A model generated the notes under the pieces. The model searched no databases. It was given only the letters and a program-made list of their open reading frames with translations, and was not told the DNA's origin. Shown here one piece after another: positions 39,971 through 49,136 of a DNA stretch of 64,000 bases (within the stretch, counting starts at the first letter, position 1; each line of letters opens with the position of its first letter). A program made the position numbers and the translations under genes. The stretch comes from Hyphomicrobiaceae bacterium. GTDB lineage: Bacteria; Pseudomonadota; Alphaproteobacteria; Rhizobiales; Hyphomicrobiaceae. The stretch covers positions 980,017 to 1,044,016 of the forward strand of contig CBDCYD010000016.1 of assembly GCA_965224045.1 (NCBI GenBank), given 5' to 3'.

Positions 39971-40027
39971 TGCATGCGCCGCAGCGTCGGCGATGGCTTG
40001 GCGTTCGGTGACCAAATGGAGATGAGG

Positions 40028-40348
40028 ATGGCAGTCAAGCAACCTTCGCAATGCAAGGATATGAACGATGTGCGTGCCGAAATCGATCGGCTCGATACGG
40101 CCCTGGTCGAGTTGATCGGGGAGCGCTTCGGTTATGTGGAGCGGGCGTGGCAGATCAAGCTCGCCGAAAATGCGGCAGCCAACGTGCCGTGGCGCAACCA
40201 GCAGGTGGTGGACCGGGTGCGCGCCAAAGCGGAGGCCGTCGGCGTGCCGCCCGACCTGTGCGAGGCGCTGTGGCGGCAGATGATCGGATGGTTCATCCAG
40301 TACGAAGAGGAAAAGCTCAAAGCGGAGCTTGGTGGCAAAGACGACTGA
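40028..40348 (+). CDS. Chorismate mutase (AroQ / type II, monofunctional)
   Basis: VRAEIDRLDTALVELIGERFGYVERAWQIK matches the CM_2 helix-1 pattern (R..ID..D..L..L...R). The start is ambiguous (39974, 40016 or 40028). Confidence 0.68.
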   Translation: MAVKQPSQCKDMNDVRAEIDRLDTALVELIGERFGYVERAWQIKLAENAAANVPWRNQQVVDRVRAKAEAVGVPPDLCEALWRQMIGWFIQYEEEKLKAELGGKDD

Positions 40349-40354
40349 GTTTCG

Positions 40355-40654
40355 ATGGTGGCTGGCTTTGACCCCAATCTCGACCCCCTCGTCCTGTTGG
40401 TGACGGCGGTCGCAAACCCTGTCGTGATCGTCGTTGCGTTTTATCTCGGTTGGCGCGCGGATCAGTGGCAGAAGCTGGTGATCGCCGGGTTCGGGGCGGC
40501 AATTGCCGGGGCCTTTGCGATCTGGTGTGCGACGTTTGCAGGCCTGCTTGCGCCGCGGCCGTTCGGAAGTGATGCCGGGGTGTTTGTGTTCAGCTTCGTT
40601 TATGGCATTGCGGTCGCCGCGGCGGGTTATGTCCTGGTGCGCCGGAACCGGTAG
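40355..40654 (+). CDS. Hypothetical small membrane protein (3 predicted TM helices)
   Basis: 99-aa hydrophobic ORF starting 7 nt after the chorismate mutase stop. No recognisable family. Confidence 0.45.
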   Translation: MVAGFDPNLDPLVLLVTAVANPVVIVVAFYLGWRADQWQKLVIAGFGAAIAGAFAIWCATFAGLLAPRPFGSDAGVFVFSFVYGIAVAAAGYVLVRRNR

Positions 40655-40749
40655 CGCGTGGACTGCGCGCTTTGTCCCAGATTTGATTTCGGCAACGCGA
40701 CGGTCTTTGGCAGAATGCGGACGGTTGTCGACGGAAAGCGGAGGCCTGC

Positions 40750-41202
40750 GTGATGCGGTTCGGTTCCTCAGGCACGATCGTATGGGTGCTGTTCGCGGTG
40801 CTCTCGTGGCCGTCGTGGGCCGCTGCTCAAAGCACCAACATGTCCGTTGACGAGGCGCATCGCCTGGCTGTCAATGGTGACATCGTCTTGATCGATATAC
40901 GCGCACCGAAGGAATGGCGCCAGTCTGGTGTGCCAGCCAGTGGGCGGACGATAACGATGTACCAGTGGCCGCAAGGCTTTGTGTCGGCGCTCAAGGCTGC
41001 AGCCGGTGGTGATGGCGCCAAGCCGATCGCGCTGATCTGTGCGACCGGGGTTCGCTCGCTCTATGTGCAAAAGGCATTGCGGCAGGCGGGGTTCAAGTCC
41101 GTTATCAACGTGGTCGGAGGGATGTTCGGTACCAAGCGCCATCGCGGTTGGCTAAAGGCCGGTCTGCCGACCCGGACATGGTCGAAACCCAAGACGCAGT
41201 GA
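40750..41202 (+). CDS. Rhodanese-domain (sulfurtransferase-like) protein with a signal peptide
   Basis: Signal peptide (VLFAVLSWPSWAAA), LIDIRAPKEW, and an active-site loop CATGVRS. Confidence 0.7.
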   Translation: MMRFGSSGTIVWVLFAVLSWPSWAAAQSTNMSVDEAHRLAVNGDIVLIDIRAPKEWRQSGVPASGRTITMYQWPQGFVSALKAAAGGDGAKPIALICATGVRSLYVQKALRQAGFKSVINVVGGMFGTKRHRGWLKAGLPTRTWSKPKTQ

Positions 41203-41368: not shown

Positions 41369-42847
<1,479 letters not shown>

Positions 42848-42889
42848 CGCGCGGCAGAGCGCGGGTGTGCCGGGGCAAGGGGGAATGCC

Positions 42890-45226
42890 ATGAGGCGGGC
42901 CGTCGACCGTCCGCGATGCGCGGTTTCTTTGTGGTTCAGCCACGGCGTTGGTCTGGTGCTGGCGTTGTTGGTTGCCGGGCTTGGCGATGTTTACGCACAA
43001 CAAAGCGAAGGCGGCACGTCGGTAGCGCAGCGGCCGTTGCGGCTGGGCGTGCTGATCAGTTCCGATTCGGATCGCTGCTACGATGCGGGCGTGTTCAAGG
43101 CGATCCGCAATTTTGCGCGCGAAGAGATCAACGAGATCAACCGCACAGGCGGTATCGGCGGTCGGCGCGTCGAGCTCAGGCTGTTCGACGATGGCGAAGA
43201 CGTCGAAAAGACCGTCGCCTTCGTCAAGCAGGCGGTGGATGATCCCGACATGATCGGGCTGGTTGGGATCAGCAGTTCGACGCGCGGCAATATCGTGTTC
43301 GGACGGATCGGTGCCGAGGTCGGTGCAAGCGCGCTGCCCTTGGTTACCGACATTTCGCTGAGCCAGATCTACGCGCCCTACAAGAACGTGTTTTCGATGG
43401 CCAGCGCGGTCGCCGATGAACTCGAGGTGGTGCGTACGCTGTTGAAGGATCGCGGGTTCAAGCGGCCGGCCTTTATCGGCATCAAAGGCGATCTCTACAG
43501 CGCCTCGCTCGGCGACGGCCTGGCGGCGGCCGGCAGCGAGCCGCCACTGGCGCTCGACCGTCGTGTAACGGTGAAGGACTATCGCATCGACCAGGGCGAT
43601 GTTGCGCCGGTGGTGCGCGATATCCAGGCCGCCGAGGCGGACCTCGTGATCCTGGCGATCCACAGCGCCCCCGGTGCGACGGTGCTCGGGCAACTGCTCA
43701 AGGCCGGCTACAAGGTGCCGGTCCTGGTACTCTACGGGCGCATCGCAACCATCCTGCGGCTTTCCGACAAGCTTCCGGACGATCTCAAGTTCTTCCAGCT
43801 GGCGCGCGATGGTGTGCCCTACGTCTACAATGAGCGCTTGCGGCAGTTGATCTGGCAGTCGCAATCCGCGCGCTGGATTTTCGAGGATACGCCGAACGCA
43901 GCCAACCGAGCGGGCTGGGAAAGCGGCCTTTGCAAGCCCAAGAAGGACACTGCCAAGCGACAGATCTTCGATGGCGGCAACCGGCGCGCGATCGGCCGTG
44001 GCATGCAGTACCGTGACGTCCTGCACTTGATGGCGACGCTCGCGCGGGAGGTGCCCGCGGGCGCGGATGTCGCCGCCATCCGCCGCCATGTCAGCCGAGA
44101 GCTCGGCGGTTTCGTCGAGGGCAAGAAGGTTTTCAAGGGCCTGTGGCAGGACTGGACTTTTACGAGCAACCGTGCGGCCGCAAGCGACATCCTGATCACG
44201 ACCTCGGGCAGCGATCCGAAGTCGGCGGCCCTGGCGCCTATCCAGTACCGCCGGGTCAATGCCACGCTGGTGCGCAGTCCGGTTGTGGACATGTCAATCG
44301 ATCTGATCCGGATCGCCGGCATCGATTCCAACGAGCGGCGCTTCGATGCCGAGTTCTATCTCTCGCTCAAGAGCGTGGACAACAAAGTCTCGATTGCCGC
44401 GGTCGATTTCACAAACGCGGCGCGGTCGCATTTCAGTCGCGATCGACTGATCAGCAGCCGGGCGATTCACGAAGGTGAAGGCGGCTCGAAGTTTCCGGTC
44501 GGGGTCAAGGTCTACAAGGTCGCCGGCACCTTCCAGTTCAATCCGGACCTCGGTGCCTATCCGTTCGATACCCAGCGGCTTTCGGTGTCGTTTCAGGCGC
44601 GCAGCGCGGCTAATCCGTTCTTGATCCAGCCGCCCGCTCAGGTCTTGCGCCAGGCCAACGGCGAGGTCGACGGCTGGGTTCTGCGCGATCAGTACGTGGG
44701 TTCCGAACAGGATATCATCTCGACGATTGCCGAGGATGGTGTCGGACGTCACGTCGTGCCGATCTACAAGTTCAATCAGACCTGGGTGGTGCGGAGGATT
44801 TCGGTCGACTACTATATCCGTGTCGTGGTGCCGCTGGCGTTCATCTTGCTGGTAACCTATTTCTCCGTCTATCTGCCGGCCTCCCGGTTCGATTCGACGG
44901 TTGCCATCCAGGTGACCGCTCTGTTGTCGTCGATTGCGCTCTATCTAGCGCTCCCCAAGGTCGAATCGGATCAAGCGACGCTCTCGGACAAGATGTTCAT
45001 CATGACCTATGCGGCTGTCGCGCTGATGATCGGGCTGACGATCCTCAAGGATGCGCGCTGGCTGGCCGGGTTCGGTGCCGTGCGCCTCGTCGTCGTCGGC
45101 TTTCAACGGGTGGCGTTTCCGGCCGCGACGGCAGCAATCGTGCTCTACCTGATGTCGACGGCCGACCGCCAGGGTGGTGATTTGGCACAAAGCCTGCGCG
45201 ACCTGTGGCAGTCGTTTGCCGGCTGA
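42890..45226 (+). CDS. Fusion protein: signal peptide + LivK-type (type 1) periplasmic binding domain + prokaryotic pentameric ligand-gated ion channel (Cys-loop receptor superfamily)
   Basis: Residues about 45-430 look like a Leu/Ile/Val-binding-protein fold (LRLGVLISSDS...INRTGGIGGRRVELRLFDDGEDVEK...LVGISSSTRG). Residues about 465-640 form a beta-rich ECD with the signature loop YPFDTQ at 44558-44575. From 44813 there are 4 TM helices. M1 is YYIRVVVPLAFILLVTYFSVYL, and M2 is RFDSTVAIQVTALLSSIALYLALPK, colinear with ELIC/GLIC M2 ending in LP(K/R). Confidence 0.8.
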   Translation: MRRAVDRPRCAVSLWFSHGVGLVLALLVAGLGDVYAQQSEGGTSVAQRPLRLGVLISSDSDRCYDAGVFKAIRNFAREEINEINRTGGIGGRRVELRLFDDGEDVEKTVAFVKQAVDDPDMIGLVGISSSTRGNIVFGRIGAEVGASALPLVTDISLSQIYAPYKNVFSMASAVADELEVVRTLLKDRGFKRPAFIGIKGDLYSASLGDGLAAAGSEPPLALDRRVTVKDYRIDQGDVAPVVRDIQAAEADLVILAIHSAPGATVLGQLLKAGYKVPVLVLYGRIATILRLSDKLPDDLKFFQLARDGVPYVYNERLRQLIWQSQSARWIFEDTPNAANRAGWESGLCKPKKDTAKRQIFDGGNRRAIGRGMQYRDVLHLMATLAREVPAGADVAAIRRHVSRELGGFVEGKKVFKGLWQDWTFTSNRAAASDILITTSGSDPKSAALAPIQYRRVNATLVRSPVVDMSIDLIRIAGIDSNERRFDAEFYLSLKSVDNKVSIAAVDFTNAARSHFSRDRLISSRAIHEGEGGSKFPVGVKVYKVAGTFQFNPDLGAYPFDTQRLSVSFQARSAANPFLIQPPAQVLRQANGEVDGWVLRDQYVGSEQDIISTIAEDGVGRHVVPIYKFNQTWVVRRISVDYYIRVVVPLAFILLVTYFSVYLPASRFDSTVAIQVTALLSSIALYLALPKVESDQATLSDKMFIMTYAAVALMIGLTILKDARWLAGFGAVRLVVVGFQRVAFPAATAAIVLYLMSTADRQGGDLAQSLRDLWQSFAG

Positions 45227-46421: not shown

Positions 46422-47867
46422 GTGGCAATCGAGCTGCCAAGCCCTAATTCTACTACGATAGAGCAGAAGGATGCCATCATCAGAGAGCTGATGGGGCTGG
46501 TCGGCGAAGAGGCCGTCATTGCGGACGTTGATGGACGCCGCGCCTTTGAAACGGATGCCCTGACAGCTTATACGCGGTTGCCGCTGGCAGTGGTTCTGCC
46601 GCGTACAACAGAAGATGTCTCCAAACTGTTGCGATATTGTCATTCGCGGCGGCTCAAGGTGTTTCCGCGTGGCGCCGGAACCTCGCTTTGCGGCGGTGCG
46701 CTGCCCTCGGAAGACGGCATCGTGATTTGCATTTCCAAGATGAACAAGGTGCTGGAGGTCGACTTCACGGACCGGTTCATGCGGGTCGAAGCCGGCATGA
46801 CCAATCTCGGGATCTCCCAGGCGGTGGAGGACAAGCGCTACTTTTATGCGCCCGACCCCTCAAGCCAGCTGGCGTGCACCATCGCCGGCAATATCGCGAT
46901 GAATTCCGGTGGCGCCCACTGCCTTAAGTACGGCGTCACCTTAAACAACGTGCTCGGCCTTAGGATGGTGACCATCGAAGGCGAGGTCATCGATATCGGT
47001 GGGCCGTATCTTGACGCGCAGGGTCTTGATCTGCTCGGCATGATGATCGGCTCCGAGGGCCAGTTCGGGATCGTGACCGAGGCGACCGTGCGTATCCTTC
47101 GGTGCGCCGATGGGGCCCGGCCGATGATGGTCGGATTTCATGCGTGCGAAGATGCAGGTGCCTGCGTGGCAGCGATCATCGGCGCCGGCATCGTGCCGGT
47201 TGCTATCGAATACATGGACAAACCGGCCATCCACGTCTGTGAGGACTTCGCCAAGGCCGGCTATCCGCGCGATGTCGAAGCACTGCTGATCATCGAAGTC
47301 GAAGGCAGCGAGGAGGAGATCTCGCTCCTGCTCGACCGCATCGAAGGCATAGCCCAGCGCTATAACCCGGCGACGATCGTGATCAGCGAGAGCGAGGAAC
47401 AGAGCGCGCGGATCTGGCGCGGTCGCAAATCGGCGTTTGGTGCCATCGGCCGAATCTCGGAATACTACTGCATGGACGGTACGATCCCACTCGGCCGCCT
47501 GCCCGAGGTGCTGACGGGGATATCCGAGATCTGCGCGCGCCACGGCCTCAAGGTGGCGAACATCTTTCACGCCGGAGACGGCAACCTGCATCCCCTCATC
47601 CTCTATGATGCCAACAATCCGGAAGAGGCGCACAGGGCCGAAGAGGCGGGTGCCGAAATTCTCACGCTGTGCGTCGAGGTCGGCGGGTGCCTGACGGGCG
47701 AGCATGGTGTCGGTATCGAAAAACGCGATCTCATGCGCGTGCAGTTCAGCGAGTCCGATCTGGCACTGCAGATGCGGATCAAGGCGATGATGGACCCGCA
47801 CTGGTTGCTCAATCCGGGCAAGGTGTTTCCTCTCGATGTCGATCAGGATCAGGCGGCAGCAGCGTAG
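46422..47867 (+). CDS. glcD: Glycolate oxidase subunit GlcD (FAD-linked oxidase)
   Basis: FAD-binding PCMH domain (VFPRGAGTSLCGGALP), about 480 aa, followed by glcE and glcF. GTG start. Confidence 0.9.
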   Translation: MAIELPSPNSTTIEQKDAIIRELMGLVGEEAVIADVDGRRAFETDALTAYTRLPLAVVLPRTTEDVSKLLRYCHSRRLKVFPRGAGTSLCGGALPSEDGIVICISKMNKVLEVDFTDRFMRVEAGMTNLGISQAVEDKRYFYAPDPSSQLACTIAGNIAMNSGGAHCLKYGVTLNNVLGLRMVTIEGEVIDIGGPYLDAQGLDLLGMMIGSEGQFGIVTEATVRILRCADGARPMMVGFHACEDAGACVAAIIGAGIVPVAIEYMDKPAIHVCEDFAKAGYPRDVEALLIIEVEGSEEEISLLLDRIEGIAQRYNPATIVISESEEQSARIWRGRKSAFGAIGRISEYYCMDGTIPLGRLPEVLTGISEICARHGLKVANIFHAGDGNLHPLILYDANNPEEAHRAEEAGAEILTLCVEVGGCLTGEHGVGIEKRDLMRVQFSESDLALQMRIKAMMDPHWLLNPGKVFPLDVDQDQAAAA

Positions 47868-47915
47868 CAGGATGGCGCGCGCGGCGGCCGTCGGGGATGG
47901 TGTGAGGGCTGGAAT

Positions 47916-49136
47916 TTGAACGCAATCGTGAGGCCGGCTGCCGATTGGGAACTGGCGCGTGTTTTGCGCGAGGCCTGTGAGAGCCAGATACCGGTTGAAG
48001 TCATTGGCGGAGGATCAAAGCGAGACGCCGGTCGGCCATTGCAGGTCGGCACCATCATTTCGACCCATGTGCTGCGCGGAATCCGACTTTACGAGCCGAG
48101 CGAACTGGTGATGTCGGCGCAGGCGGGAACATTGCTGAGCGAGGTTGAAAAGGAGCTTGCCGCGAACGGCCAGATGCTCGCATTTGAGCCCGTTGATCTC
48201 GGCCCGGCGCTGGGCCAGGGGGCGGGCCTGGGTACGGTCGGCGGCATGTTTGCCACCAATATTTCGGGCAGCCGGCGGATTGCGCTCGGTGCAGCGCGTG
48301 ATCATCTGCTGGGCGTCAAGGCCGTGACGGGAAACGGTGAGATCTTCAAGTCCGGCGGCCGGGTCCTCAAGGACGTCACCGGCTACGACCTCGTCCGTGC
48401 CGTCGCCGGCAGCTGGGGTACGCTGGCGGCAATGACGGATGCCACGTTCAAAGTGCTGCCGCGCCCCGAAGAGACGGCGACCGCAGTGATCGTCGGGCTT
48501 TCGAATGAACTGGCGGTCGAGGCGATGTGTGCTGCGATGGCGACGCCGCTGGAGGTCTCGGGCGCGGTGCATCTGGAGGCGGAACTGGTCGGGCGCCTCA
48601 TGCACGATGAGTTTCGCAGTGCCGGCAACGCGGTGACGGCGATCCGGCTCGAGAACTTTTCCAGCTTCGTGGCAAAGCGCATGGAGCGGCTGCAGGCAGC
48701 GCTGACGGCCTACGGTGAAATCCATGTCGCCGGCAACGAGGACTCGCTCGCGTTCTGGTCGGAACTGCAGCAGCTCTCCCCGATGGTCAATCGGACGGAT
48801 CAACTGTGGCGCATTTCGACCCTGCCGAGCAAAGGGGCCGACTTCGTCGCCGACATCCAGCGCTACATGAATGCGCATGCCTATTTCGATTGGTCGGGCG
48901 GGCTGATCTGGCTTGCGGTGCAGGAGGCCGCGGACGCGGGCGCAACGGACATTCGCCGCGTCATTGCGAGCTATGGCGGGCATGCGACCTTGATCCGGGC
49001 CGCCGCCGACGTGCGCCAGACCGTCGAGGTGTTCCATCCGCTCGACCACGGCAACGAAAAGATGACGCGCAGCCTGAAGAACGTGTTTGATCCTGCCGGA
49101 GTACTCAATCCCGGCCGGATGTATGCGAATATCTGA
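47916..49136 (+). CDS. glcE: Glycolate oxidase FAD-binding subunit GlcE
   Basis: FAD_binding_4-like domain (VIGGGSKRDAGRP, VLKDVTGYDL) positioned between glcD and glcF. TTG start as in the track. Confidence 0.85.
   Translation: MNAIVRPAADWELARVLREACESQIPVEVIGGGSKRDAGRPLQVGTIISTHVLRGIRLYEPSELVMSAQAGTLLSEVEKELAANGQMLAFEPVDLGPALGQGAGLGTVGGMFATNISGSRRIALGAARDHLLGVKAVTGNGEIFKSGGRVLKDVTGYDLVRAVAGSWGTLAAMTDATFKVLPRPEETATAVIVGLSNELAVEAMCAAMATPLEVSGAVHLEAELVGRLMHDEFRSAGNAVTAIRLENFSSFVAKRMERLQAALTAYGEIHVAGNEDSLAFWSELQQLSPMVNRTDQLWRISTLPSKGADFVADIQRYMNAHAYFDWSGGLIWLAVQEAADAGATDIRRVIASYGGHATLIRAAADVRQTVEVFHPLDHGNEKMTRSLKNVFDPAGVLNPGRMYANI

What the first reader, a model, noticed from the sequence alone, without database searches (positions are those of the whole stretch)
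42890..45226. Periplasmic-binding-protein domain fused to a prokaryotic pentameric ligand-gated ion channel
One 778-aa ORF encodes three parts in order. First comes a signal peptide. Second is a ~390-aa domain with the look of LivK/LIVBP-type (type 1) solute-binding proteins. Third is a complete Cys-loop-superfamily channel. The channel has a beta-sandwich ECD carrying the signature loop YPFDTQ (no flanking cysteines, as in GLIC/ELIC), then M1-M4 with a very short M3-M4 loop. Its M2, RFDSTVAIQVTALLSSIALYLALPK, aligns residue-for-residue in length with ELIC M2 (R...LPR). N-terminal accessory domains on bacterial pLGICs were noted bioinformatically (Tasneem et al. 2005) and seen structurally for DeCLIC. 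To my knowledge, a LIVBP-type Venus-flytrap module gating a pentameric channel has not been characterised. The arrangement parallels the LIVBP-like amino-terminal domains of eukaryotic iGluRs and class C GPCRs, but on a different channel scaffold. The ligand is unknown (amino acid, amide or urea-like?), as are ion selectivity and physiological role. The gene sits alone, 42 nt after gatB and convergent with a LysR regulator.
Basis: partly seen in the sequence, partly recalled or inferred. Interest (0 to 1): 0.75.

Follow-up and report, generated by a model that had tools for sequence, protein, structure and literature searches.

The report
Binding-protein domain fused to pentameric channel
One bacterial gene encodes a nutrient-sensor-like clamshell domain joined directly to a complete acetylcholine-receptor-type ion channel; the design was noticed by computer analysis in 2004 but has never been tested, and databases mislabel it as a transporter component.

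Summary
ORF 42890..45226 (+) encodes 778 aa in four parts: a Sec-type signal peptide, a LIVBP/LivJ-type (type 1) periplasmic binding protein (PBP) domain, a cysteine-free beta-sandwich with an invariant YPFDxQR Pro-loop, and M1-M4.

- **PBP half:** Pfam Peripla_BP_6 at E 1.7e-17; Foldseek matches to LivJ-like proteins at E ~1e-15.
- **Channel half:** no Pfam pLGIC model matches at E<=1. Four other lines establish it: a family profile against the PDB (DeCLIC 8e-6, GLIC ~2e-4 over the full ECD+TMD), a confident AF2 model (pLDDT 84) matching GLIC, ELIC, DeCLIC and GABA-A at E ~1e-15, bridging sequences that carry Neur_chan domains, and direct similarity to B. japonicum blr0080.
- **Not a join artefact:** the fusion is full-length in 77 of 81 loci, and a ~670-aa tier is homologous end to end (hhalign E 3e-71).

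The novelty claim is overstated. Tasneem et al. (2004/5) explicitly described PBP-I + pLGIC fusions in alphaproteobacteria. The window protein is a divergent branch of that architecture (24% identity to blr0080's channel half), largely Hyphomicrobiaceae, with no conserved neighbours.

No member has been characterised. Ligand, ion selectivity and role remain unknown; an invariant acidic 2' ring suggests cations.

The parts
42877..42885 (+). Shine-Dalgarno-like AAGGGGGAA, about 5 nt upstream of the ATG, inside the 42-nt gap after gatB
   Evidence: Sequence read. No promoter-like or terminator-like site lies in the gap, so co-transcription with gatB is possible in this genome.
42890..45226 (+). 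Whole gene: 778-aa PBP-pLGIC fusion protein (stop codon 45224-45226)
   Evidence: ORF. Full-length homologues: 38 clusters, 287 genomes.
42890..42997 (+). Sec-type signal peptide, residues 1-36 (cleavage predicted after V-Y-A36)
   Evidence: Read from the sequence. AF2 gives a helix at 12-38 with low pLDDT. This is the least conserved segment (0.26). Homologues share an A-x-A-Q-like end. Inference only; no predictor was run.
43031..44257 (+). Type 1 (LIVBP/LivJ-like, Peripla_BP_6) periplasmic binding protein / Venus-flytrap domain, residues ~48-456
   Evidence: Pfam PF13458 E 1.7e-17. Family profile vs PDB: 3lop 1.5e-9, 4q6w 2.4e-8. Foldseek: LivJ-like proteins at E ~1e-15, TMt up to 0.75. Alternating beta/alpha elements at pLDDT ~90-96. 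Invariant cleft-region motifs and the invariant pair C63/C348.
44264..44797 (+). pLGIC extracellular beta-sandwich domain, residues ~459-636, joined to the PBP by only ~2-3 residues
   Evidence: All-beta in the AF2 model. GLIC residues 17-310 align to profile positions 464-753. Foldseek matches GLIC, ELIC and DeCLIC. No cysteine in this domain.
44558..44578 (+). Pro-loop signature Y557-P-F-D-T-Q-R563 (the Cys-loop equivalent, without cysteines)
   Evidence: Y557 is nearly invariant; P558, F559, D560, Q562 and R563 are invariant in 34 sequences. The motif is conserved across the wider clade and aligns to ELIC FPFDRQ.
44801..44866 (+). M1, residues 638-659, preceded by the invariant pre-M1 Arg R636 and containing the invariant M1 Pro P648
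   Evidence: (mean conservation 0.82).
44879..44950 (+). M2 pore helix, residues 664-687: R666=0', D668=2', A672=6', V675=9', L679=13', I682=16', L686=20'; followed by P689=23', K690=24'
   Evidence: Same length as ELIC M2. Conservation 0.81: 2' acidic in 32/32, 9' V and 13' L in 32/32.
44981..45049 (+). M3, residues 698-720
   Evidence: 0.72.
45074..45163 (+). M4, residues 729-758, after an M3-M4 loop of only ~8 residues
   Evidence: 0.41, as expected for a lipid-facing helix.
45167..45220 (+). Extra C-terminal helix after M4, residues 760-777 (would be periplasmic); present only in the closer subfamily
   Evidence: AF2 helix 760-777 at low-to-moderate pLDDT. Absent in P0022-24 and P0027-37.

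Best explanation
The gene encodes one subunit of an inner-membrane pentameric ligand-gated ion channel. The periplasmic side of each subunit carries a LIVBP-type clamshell (Venus-flytrap) binding domain.

**Shown here**
- After a signal peptide, a two-lobed type 1 PBP domain (residues ~48-456) runs with essentially no linker into beta-1 of a Pro-loop-receptor extracellular domain (~459-636), followed by M1-M4.
- The gating-interface residues common to pLGICs are invariant: Pro-loop D560, pre-M1 R636, M1 P648 and M2-M3 P689.
- M1, M2 and the M2-M3 loop are the most conserved parts of the protein.
- The fusion is old. It is inherited as one unit with a fixed junction length, and it has no conserved operon partner.

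**Inferred**
- Five subunits assemble around a pore lined by D/E 2', A/T/G 6', V 9', L 13' and I/V 16'.
- A periplasmic small molecule binds the conserved PBP cleft. An amino-acid-like or other small polar metabolite is the best guess.
- Clamshell closure is passed through the rigid junction to the top of the beta-sandwich, biasing the ECD twist and opening the 9'-16' hydrophobic gate.
- The invariant acidic ring at 2' makes the pore cation-selective.
- The resulting ion flux or depolarisation gives the cell a fast, transcription-independent response to a periplasmic solute. Tasneem et al. proposed chemotaxis.

Identity as a PBP-pLGIC fusion: about 0.95. PBP-controlled gating, as agonist site or as modulator: about 0.55. 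Cation selectivity: about 0.55.
For: - PBP domain.
- pLGIC fold and sequence: ELIC E 2e-4 over residues 535-751; profile: DeCLIC 8e-6, GLIC ~2e-4 over the full ECD+TMD; pLDDT 84.4, pTM 0.78; GLIC, ELIC, DeCLIC, GABA-A at E ~1e-15.
- Bridges to curated families: the channel half hits P0180 at 3.9e-11, and P0180 has Neur_chan_memb at 33.3 bits against a cut-off of 28.1. It also hits stand-alone P0153 and P0170, which have near-threshold Neur_chan_LBD.
- Direct similarity to the published blr0080 channel half: 24% identity over 310 residues, 69.7 bits.
- The fusion is real and old: (hhalign E 3.4e-71 over PBP+ECD+TMD).
- The pore is under the strongest selection: M1 0.82, M2 0.81, M2-M3 0.82, against PBP 0.57-0.60 and M4 0.41. 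Position 2' is acidic in 32/32.
- The PBP cleft region is conserved: S57-S58, SSTR 129-132, P150...T/S153-D/E-I-S/T156, Y/F203, D251, G283-R284, W329-x-F331.
- ELIC's loop-B aromatic F133 aligns to the variable R571, and loop-C Y175 to the variable E617. This fits a sensor located in the PBP rather than in a classical aromatic box.
- No conserved ABC-transporter or other neighbour in 81 loci.
Against: - Nothing functional was tested. Pentamer formation, ligand binding, gating and selectivity are all inferred by homology.
- No model coordinates were available. I could not check the PBP-ECD interface, the fit of five PBPs on one pentamer, or the C63-C348 distance.
- Pfam pLGIC models do not match.
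- LivJ's alpha-ammonium-binding E226 aligns to a non-acidic, variable position (Y/L/T/A 282), so a canonical amino-acid ligand is doubtful. That alignment is at about 15% identity and is approximate.
- The ECD keeps many invariant polar and aromatic residues (F507, N509, H527, Y542, W596, Y602, D608, K627), so an ECD site of its own cannot be excluded.
- Close relatives carry P-A-R at -2' to 0', the motif of anion-selective Cys-loop receptors, which conflicts with the cation reading.
Confidence: 0.65

Rival explanations
1. The PBP domain is an allosteric modulator, not the agonist site. It would work like the NMDA-receptor amino-terminal domain or the DeCLIC NTD. The channel would be opened by something acting on the canonical ECD (a ligand at the subunit interface, protons, or divalent-cation removal), and the PBP would tune kinetics or sensitivity.
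For: - The only characterised NTD-bearing pLGIC, DeCLIC, uses its NTD to accelerate gating, while Ca2+ acts in both the NTD and the ECD (PMC12664993).
- The ECD retains many invariant polar and aromatic residues.
- ELIC loop-C F188 aligns to F628, which is Phe in most members.
Against: - The loop-B aromatic and the loop-C Tyr equivalents are variable.
- The junction has essentially zero linker and a fixed length. That suggests tight mechanical coupling rather than a loosely tethered modulator like the flexible DeCLIC NTD.
Confidence: 0.3
2. Ligand hand-off, as Tasneem et al. originally proposed. The PBP captures and concentrates a solute and passes it to the channel's own ligand-binding domain, which is the true gate trigger.
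For: - Proposed in PMC549065.
- Other bacterial pLGIC genes sit in operons with stand-alone PBP-II or Cache proteins (same paper), which suggests cooperation between two binding modules.
Against: - There is no precedent for PBP-to-ECD ligand transfer.
- The classical aromatic-box positions are not conserved here.
- A rigid fusion offers little freedom for the PBP cleft to dock onto an inter-subunit site.
Confidence: 0.08
3. The public annotation is right in spirit. The protein would be a membrane-tethered substrate-binding protein serving an ABC transporter, and the C-terminal module would be only an anchor or a non-conducting scaffold.
For: - Sources name it 'ABC transporter substrate-binding protein' or 'substrate-binding family protein'.
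- Only the PBP half is recognised by Pfam and NCBIfam.
Against: - The pore-forming helices are the most conserved part of the protein, with invariant 9' V, 13' L and an acidic 2'. A passive anchor would not be constrained this way.
- The full ECD+TMD pLGIC fold is present.
- No ABC permease or ATPase gene is a conserved neighbour in 81 loci.
- The names are automatic transfers from the single recognised domain.
Confidence: 0.04
4. The ORF is two genes (an SBP gene and a channel gene) joined by a sequencing or assembly error near 44150-44280.
For: None was found.
Against: - 77 of 81 loci from independent assemblies have one continuous ORF.
- 34 homologues align without a break across the junction.
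- A distant tier is collinear over all three modules.
- In the exhaustive search the channel starts at residue ~360-520 of proteins 640-860 aa long.
Confidence: 0.01

Closest known systems
PBP-I + ART-LGIC fusions of alphaproteobacteria: Bradyrhizobium japonicum blr0080 and Magnetospirillum magnetotacticum Magn021056 (Tasneem, Iyer, Jakobsson & Aravind, Genome Biol 2004/5, PMC549065)
   Same: - Same domain order and size: signal peptide, then a ~400-aa type 1 PBP, then a pLGIC ECD and 4 TM helices. blr0080 is 754 aa with its LBD from residue 422; Magn021056 is 733 aa with its LBD from 405.
- Same bacterial class.
- The channel halves are detectably homologous: blr0080 24% identity over 310 residues, 69.7 bits.
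   Different: - It is a separate, more divergent branch. Identity in the channel half is only 20-24%.
- The published pair group with P0180, P0160 and P0161, and Pfam's Neur_chan_memb model detects P0180. The window's family gets no Pfam pLGIC hit in 34/34 members.
- M2 differs: the window family has an invariant acidic 2' and an LPK M2-M3 start, whereas blr0080 has E at -2' and a GDVGY M2-M3 loop.
- The PBP halves could not be compared, because the supplement holds only the channel halves.
- Neither protein has been characterised experimentally.
DeCLIC (Desulfofustis pLGIC with an N-terminal domain; PDB 6v4a, 9ftg and others)
   Same: - A prokaryotic pLGIC whose subunit carries a large periplasmic N-terminal domain about as big as the channel.
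- It is the best PDB sequence match for the channel half with the family profile (E 8e-6) and also matches by fold (9ftj).
   Different: - The DeCLIC NTD is two jelly-roll lobes that bind Ca2+ and are flexible (PMC12664993). Here the NTD is a two-lobed alpha/beta clamshell of the LivJ type, joined by a junction of fixed length.
ELIC and GLIC (stand-alone bacterial pLGICs)
   Same: - Pro-loop without cysteines, a short M3-M4 loop, a 25-residue R...LP(K/R) M2 and the pre-M1 Arg.
- Full-length fold match at TMt ~0.61-0.67.
   Different: - They have no N-terminal domain.
- ELIC's amine-binding aromatics (F133, Y175) are not conserved here.
- The acidic ring is at 2' rather than -1'/-2'.
LIVBP-like amino-terminal / Venus-flytrap domains of eukaryotic iGluRs and class C GPCRs
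   Same: - A type 1 PBP clamshell placed N-terminal to, and controlling or modulating, a membrane signalling module.
- 14 of 34 family members hit Pfam ANF_receptor.
   Different: - The membrane scaffold is different: a pentameric Pro-loop channel, against a tetrameric P-loop channel or a 7-TM receptor.
- This is an analogy of design, not membership. Tasneem et al. already drew the parallel.
LivJ/LivK and other HAAT-family ABC-transporter substrate-binding proteins
   Same: - Fold and Pfam family. The closest solved structures are Leu/Ile/Val binders (3hut, 4q6b, 4n0q, 4gnr, 1z15).
   Different: - It is not a free periplasmic protein, and no ABC transporter partner was found.
- It has a family-specific ~30-residue insert and an invariant Cys pair.
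- The LivJ E226 equivalent is not acidic.

Membership tests
Pentameric ligand-gated ion channels (Cys-loop / Pro-loop receptor superfamily) | Subunit fold: a ~200-residue beta-sandwich ECD followed by four TM helices, with M2 amphipathic | tested here: met
   - AF2 model: beta strands at 435-636, then helices at 638-659, 664-687, 698-720 and 729-758.
- Foldseek: GLIC E 1.2e-15, TMt 0.65, 326 columns against a 311-residue target; also ELIC, DeCLIC and GABA-A.
Pentameric ligand-gated ion channels (Cys-loop / Pro-loop receptor superfamily) | Pro-loop/Cys-loop signature (aromatic-P-aromatic-D) in the beta6-beta7 loop, plus the conserved pre-M1 Arg that pairs with its Asp | tested here: met
   - Y557 (nearly invariant)-P558-F559-D560 and R636 (the last four invariant in 34 sequences).
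- The motif aligns to ELIC FPFDRQ and is conserved across the wider clade.
Pentameric ligand-gated ion channels (Cys-loop / Pro-loop receptor superfamily) | Significant match to the curated Pfam models Neur_chan_LBD (PF02931) and Neur_chan_memb (PF02932) | tested here: not met
   - No hit at E<=1 for the window protein or for any of 34 relatives.
- In the wider clade, 4 of 71 hit Neur_chan_memb and 2 of 71 hit Neur_chan_LBD.
- I read this as a model blind spot, because the sequence links below are significant.
Pentameric ligand-gated ion channels (Cys-loop / Pro-loop receptor superfamily) | Significant sequence similarity to bona fide members | tested here: met
   - Single sequence vs PDB: ELIC at E 1.9e-4 to 5e-4.
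- Family profile: DeCLIC 8e-6; GLIC ~2e-4 across GLIC residues 17-310.
- Channel half vs P0180 at 3.9e-11; P0180 has Neur_chan_memb above its cut-off.
- blr0080 at 69.7 bits.
Pentameric ligand-gated ion channels (Cys-loop / Pro-loop receptor superfamily) | Assembly as a pentamer around a central M2-lined pore | not testable with these tools
   Only monomer prediction was available, without coordinates. This needs AlphaFold-Multimer, SEC-MALS or cryo-EM.
Pentameric ligand-gated ion channels (Cys-loop / Pro-loop receptor superfamily) | Stimulus-gated ion conduction | not testable with these tools
   Indirect support only: M1, M2 and the M2-M3 loop are the most conserved segments, with invariant 9' V and 13' L and an acidic 2'.
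Type 1 periplasmic binding proteins (LIVBP-like; Pfam Peripla_BP_6 / ANF_receptor clan) | Match to the curated family model above its cut-off | tested here: met
   - PF13458 at 64.6 bits against a cut-off of 31.7.
- 34 of 34 relatives match; 14 of 34 also hit ANF_receptor.
Type 1 periplasmic binding proteins (LIVBP-like; Pfam Peripla_BP_6 / ANF_receptor clan) | Two Rossmann-like alpha/beta lobes forming a clamshell | tested here: met
   - Alternating beta/alpha elements at 50-405 with pLDDT ~90-96.
- Foldseek to LivJ-type structures: E ~1e-15, TMt 0.59-0.75, ~410 columns.
Type 1 periplasmic binding proteins (LIVBP-like; Pfam Peripla_BP_6 / ANF_receptor clan) | Small-molecule binding in the inter-lobe cleft; for amino-acid binders, the LivJ S79/T102/Y202/E226 set | tested here: inconclusive
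   - The recalled LivJ sequence was verified against 1z15 and aligned to the family.
- Ser/Thr-rich loops and the aromatics Y/F203 and F331 are conserved.
- The E226 equivalent is Y/L/T/A and the Y202 equivalent is H/G/Q.
- The alignment is at ~15% identity and no coordinates were available. The LivJ contact list is from memory.
PBP-I + pLGIC fusion architecture (Tasneem et al. 2004/5) | One polypeptide with an N-terminal PBP-I domain followed by a complete pLGIC core, in a bacterium | tested here: met
   -.
- Architecture as described in PMC549065.
- Channel-half homology to blr0080 and Magn021056 shown directly.
ABC-transporter substrate-binding protein (the public annotation) | A free or lipid-anchored SBP encoded with, and delivering substrate to, an ABC permease/ATPase | tested here: not met
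   - The PBP is covalently fused to a 4-TM pLGIC module.
- No conserved ABC transporter neighbour in 81 loci.

The most novel reading that the evidence does not exclude
In this Hyphomicrobiaceae-centred clade the canonical inter-subunit agonist pocket of the pLGIC has degenerated, and the LIVBP-type clamshell is the sole agonist sensor. That would make it a natural 'glutamate-receptor logic on an acetylcholine-receptor scaffold', in which clamshell closure is coupled through a zero-length junction to ECD twist and pore opening.

The clade is also large: at least 463 clusters at 50% identity, and at least 287 species genomes for the window's own family. It is almost invisible to Pfam's pLGIC models, so censuses that rely on those models would undercount prokaryotic pLGICs.
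Probability: 0.35. Interest if true: 0.7.

Novelty: new member of a known kind. Interest (0 to 1): 0.45.

Why it matters
- **Experimental opening.** How accessory N-terminal domains control pentameric channels is known from a single case, DeCLIC, whose NTD is a flexible jelly-roll pair. A clamshell-bearing pLGIC has a well-understood open/closed switch and a rigid junction. It would be a cleaner system for asking how a distal binding event is passed to the pLGIC gate, and a natural template for engineering ligand-gated channels with swapped PBP specificities.
- **Annotation.** Every public name found for this family is 'ABC transporter substrate-binding protein', 'substrate-binding family protein' or 'hypothetical protein'. 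Pfam's pLGIC models miss 34 of 34 close and about 94% of wider relatives. A sizeable bacterial channel clade is therefore filed under transport.
- **Biology.** The protein would give soil and water alphaproteobacteria (Hyphomicrobium, Filomicrobium, Rhodomicrobium, Devosia) a direct electrical response to a periplasmic solute. That physiology is essentially unexplored.
- **Limit.** The architecture itself is not new. It was described bioinformatically in 2004/5.

Tried and rejected
- **Pfam and NCBIfam on the protein.** Only the PBP half is recognised. NCBIfam gives only sub-threshold urea and LivJ SBP matches, which are no use for predicting the ligand.
- **Exact-sequence contig look-up for the window protein.** Nothing on record, so the source organism could not be named. 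Nearest relatives and synteny (gatB-gene-LysR-glcDE in L001-L004) point to Hyphomicrobiaceae.
- **Gene-neighbourhood clustering over 81 loci.** No conserved partner, so context gives no functional clue.
- **Profile search of the named protein database with the distant tier.** It returned 8 close relatives of the first sequence and no organism names, a dead end for taxonomy.
- **Mapping LivJ ligand contacts.** The alignment around the beta3 and beta4 loops is ambiguous by 1-2 residues at ~15% identity. Without model coordinates I could not settle it, so I make no ligand call beyond 'small polar metabolite, amino-acid-like at best'.
- **Model coordinates.** None are exposed, so the PBP-ECD interface, the C63-C348 distance and pore geometry could not be measured.
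- **Hu et al. 2020 (DeCLIC, PMC7306758).** Not held in the library. Jaiteh et al. 2016 contains no mention of PBPs or N-terminal domains.
- **Rfam and promoter/terminator scans.** No riboswitch or other RNA element. The terminator-like hits inside the ORF are within shuffle expectation (4 found against 1.8 +/- 1.5).
- **Rejected readings.** The sequencing-error fusion, the antisense 636-aa ORF as a real gene (no family hit), and the ABC-SBP annotation.

Full report
**Observation**

The window has one uninterrupted ORF at 42890..45226 on the + strand, 778 aa. A purine-rich AAGGGGGAA lies about 5 nt upstream of the ATG. gatB (GatB_N + GatB_Yqey) ends 42 nt upstream, and no promoter-like or terminator-like site lies in that gap. 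A LysR-family gene is convergent 41 nt downstream, followed by glcD/glcE-like FAD oxidase genes. A 636-aa antisense ORF overlapping the 5' half has no family match and is the usual high-GC artefact. No Rfam family matches anywhere in the window.

**The PBP half**

- Pfam Peripla_BP_6 matches residues 66-291 at 64.6 bits, against a cut-off of 31.7.
- All 34 aligned relatives match that family, and 14 also hit ANF_receptor.
- A family profile finds LivJ-like solved structures at E 1.5e-9 to 1e-6.
- The AF2 model (mean pLDDT 84.4, pTM 0.78; pLDDT ~90-96 across this domain) has alternating beta/alpha elements from 50 to 405.
- Foldseek returns Leu/Ile/Val-binding proteins (3hut, 4q6b, 4n0q, 4gnr, 1z15) at E ~1e-15, TMt 0.59-0.75.

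Aligning verified LivJ places the end of the PBP fold at about residue 432. Two further strands run straight into beta-1 of the next domain. The junction differs by at most one residue in length across 34 sequences down to 36% identity.

**The channel half**

The predicted Pfam hits did not appear. Neither Neur_chan_LBD nor Neur_chan_memb reaches E<=1 for this protein or any of the 34 relatives. Four independent lines still establish a complete pLGIC subunit:

1. *Sequence against the PDB.* The single sequence hits ELIC at E 1.9e-4 to 5e-4 over residues 535-751. The family profile hits DeCLIC at 8e-6 and GLIC at ~2e-4 across GLIC residues 17-310, which is the whole ECD+TMD.
2. *Fold.* GLIC (5mzr) matches at E 1.2e-15, TMt 0.65, over 326 columns against a 311-residue target. 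ELIC, DeCLIC and GABA-A receptors match at similar scores.
3. *Bridging sequences.* An exhaustive phmmer of residues 455-778 against 1.84 billion representatives finds 463 proteins at E<=1e-3. These include P0180 at 3.9e-11, which carries Peripla_BP_6, ANF_receptor and Neur_chan_memb above its cut-off. They also include stand-alone ~330-aa channels with near-threshold Neur_chan_LBD.
4. *Hallmarks.* Pro-loop P558, F559, D560, Q562 and R563, pre-M1 R636, M1 P648 and M2-M3 P689 are invariant, and Y557 is nearly so.

**Is the fusion real?**

Yes.

- 38 homologue clusters are almost all 730-830 aa.
- 287 species-representative genomes encode a relative.
- 77 of 81 loci have one long ORF, median 787 aa.
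- A distant ~670-aa tier is collinear over PBP, ECD and TMD (hhalign probability 100%, E 3.4e-71, 638 columns).
- In the exhaustive search, nearly every full-length hit has the channel starting at residue ~360-520.

This channel clade has therefore carried its N-terminal domain for a long time. Carriers are overwhelmingly Hyphomicrobiaceae (Hyphomicrobium, Filomicrobium, Rhodomicrobium) and Devosia, and some genomes hold two paralogues. No neighbour is conserved: gatB appears in 6 of 81 loci and LysR in 5.

**What constrains the protein**

Conservation is highest in M1 (0.82), M2 (0.81) and the M2-M3 loop (0.82). It is lower in the ECD (0.63) and the PBP (0.57-0.60), and lowest in lipid-facing M4 (0.41). 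That pattern fits a working pore, not a membrane anchor.

With P689 taken as 23', the pore positions are:

| Position | Residue(s) | Frequency |
|---|---|---|
| -1' | variable, non-acidic | |
| 0' | R / H / N | 22 / 8 / 2 |
| 2' | D or E | 32/32 |
| 6' | A / T / G | |
| 9' | V | 32/32 |
| 13' | L | 32/32 |
| 16' | I / V | |
| 20' | L | |

The wider clade keeps an acidic residue at about -1'/0' instead. An acidic ring at the cytoplasmic mouth is the classical cation-selectivity determinant, which is established knowledge of nAChR, 5-HT3, GLIC and ELIC. I therefore favour a cation channel. The caveat is that close relatives show P-A-R at -2' to 0', the anion-channel motif.

In the PBP, cleft-region motifs are strongly conserved: S57-S58, SSTR 129-132, P150...T/S-D/E-I-S/T, Y/F203, D251, G283-R284 and W329-x-F331. 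The family probably shares one ligand class. The position aligned to LivJ's ammonium-binding E226 is not acidic, so a canonical amino acid is doubtful.

ELIC's amine-binding F133 and Y175 align to variable positions (R571 and E617). This weakly favours the PBP as the sensor. The ECD does retain many invariant polar and aromatic residues, so a site of its own cannot be excluded.

**Mechanism**

*Shown:* the domain order, the folds, the gating hallmarks, the rigid fixed-length junction, the conserved pore, and stand-alone inheritance.

*Inferred:* homopentamer assembly; a periplasmic solute closing the clamshell; transmission to the ECD and opening of the 9'-16' hydrophobic gate; cation flux as a fast response to that solute.

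The main rival is that the PBP is a modulator, as in the NMDA-receptor ATD or the DeCLIC NTD, rather than the agonist site. Ligand hand-off (Tasneem's proposal), a tethered ABC substrate-binding protein (the public annotation) and a sequencing-error fusion are progressively less likely. The last is refuted.

**Comparison with what is known**

Tasneem et al. (PMC549065) explicitly reported that alphaproteobacterial pLGIC homologues from M. magnetotacticum and B. japonicum carry an N-terminal PBP-I domain. They drew the iGluR/mGluR parallel and proposed a chemosensory role.

Their supplementary alignment gives the channel halves of blr0080 (754 aa, LBD from residue 422) and Magn021056 (733 aa, LBD from 405). 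Against the window protein these are 24% identical (69.7 bits) and 20% identical (38.5 bits) over residues 465-753. They sit closer to P0180, P0160 and P0161, and Pfam detects the channel domain in P0180.

The window protein therefore has the same architecture but belongs to a separate, more divergent branch. That branch has its own M2 signature: an acidic 2' and LPK at the start of the M2-M3 loop.

I found no experimental work on any PBP-pLGIC in the held literature. Papers from 2022 and 2025 still call DeCLIC the only pLGIC whose NTD has been structurally or functionally characterised. Jaiteh et al. 2016 does not mention such domains.

**An annotation blind spot**

Only 4 of 71 wider-clade representatives reach Neur_chan_memb at E<=1e-3, and only 2 reach Neur_chan_LBD. 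None of the 34 close relatives reaches either model even at E<=1. Every public name retrieved is 'ABC transporter substrate-binding protein', 'substrate-binding family protein' or 'hypothetical protein'. This is the most useful new point from this stage.

**Verdict**

It is a new, divergent member of an architecture described bioinformatically two decades ago and still uncharacterised. A specialist would find it moderately interesting: not a surprise, but a good and overlooked experimental target.

Noticed in passing
window 42179..44089 (- strand): A 636-aa antisense ORF overlaps the 3' end of gatB and the PBP-coding half of the gene. It has no Pfam match and is most likely a high-GC artefact, not a gene.
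   Followed up: partly
window 43076-43078 (C63) and 43931-43933 (C348): After signal-peptide removal the protein has exactly two cysteines, both invariant in 32/32 relatives. C63 lies in the first strand-loop of the PBP. C348 lies in a ~30-residue family-specific insert relative to LivJ. They probably form a periplasmic disulfide stapling the insert to lobe 1. This could not be checked without model coordinates.
   Followed up: partly
window 45167-45220 (residues 760-777): An extra helix follows M4, on the periplasmic side. It is present only in the closer subfamily (P0001-P0021) and absent from P0022-24 and P0027-37. Its function is unknown.
   Followed up: no
L051/L060 (CAWHUM010000010 and CAWHUM010000009), L023/L075 (CAVONB010000015 and CAVONB010000003), L038/L066 (CAYWBS010000096 and CAYWBS010000281): Some genomes carry two paralogous PBP-pLGIC genes on different contigs. 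This hints at diversification of ligand specificity, or at heteromeric assembly.
   Followed up: no
A1, A4; proteins P0001-P0187: Pfam's Neur_chan_LBD and Neur_chan_memb models miss this channel clade almost completely: 0 of 34 close relatives, and 4 and 2 of 71 wider relatives. All source names call these proteins ABC-transporter substrate-binding, substrate-binding family or hypothetical proteins.
   Followed up: yes
L056 (JBLNBZ010000021.1): A copy at 40% identity sits in a MAG labelled Bacteroidota, whereas nearly all other carriers among the 80 listed loci are Alphaproteobacteria. This could be bin contamination or horizontal transfer.
   Followed up: no
P0026, P0037 (alignment A1, columns ~590-830): These two homologues lose register partway through the ECD/TMD and continue as unrelated sequence. 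They look like frameshifted gene calls in metagenome contigs. I excluded them from the conservation statistics.
   Followed up: partly
P0019, P0020 (alignment A1, columns 256-320): Two relatives carry a low-complexity insertion of ~45-60 residues (Ala/Gly/Asp/Ser-rich) in the second PBP lobe.
   Followed up: no
window 39974..41202 and 46422..49136: The flanking genes are ordinary housekeeping or metabolic genes: chorismate mutase (CM_2), a secreted rhodanese-domain protein, gatB, a LysR regulator, and glcD/glcE-like FAD oxidase subunits. The gatB and LysR neighbours recur in only 6 and 5 of the 81 loci, the closest relatives.
   Followed up: partly
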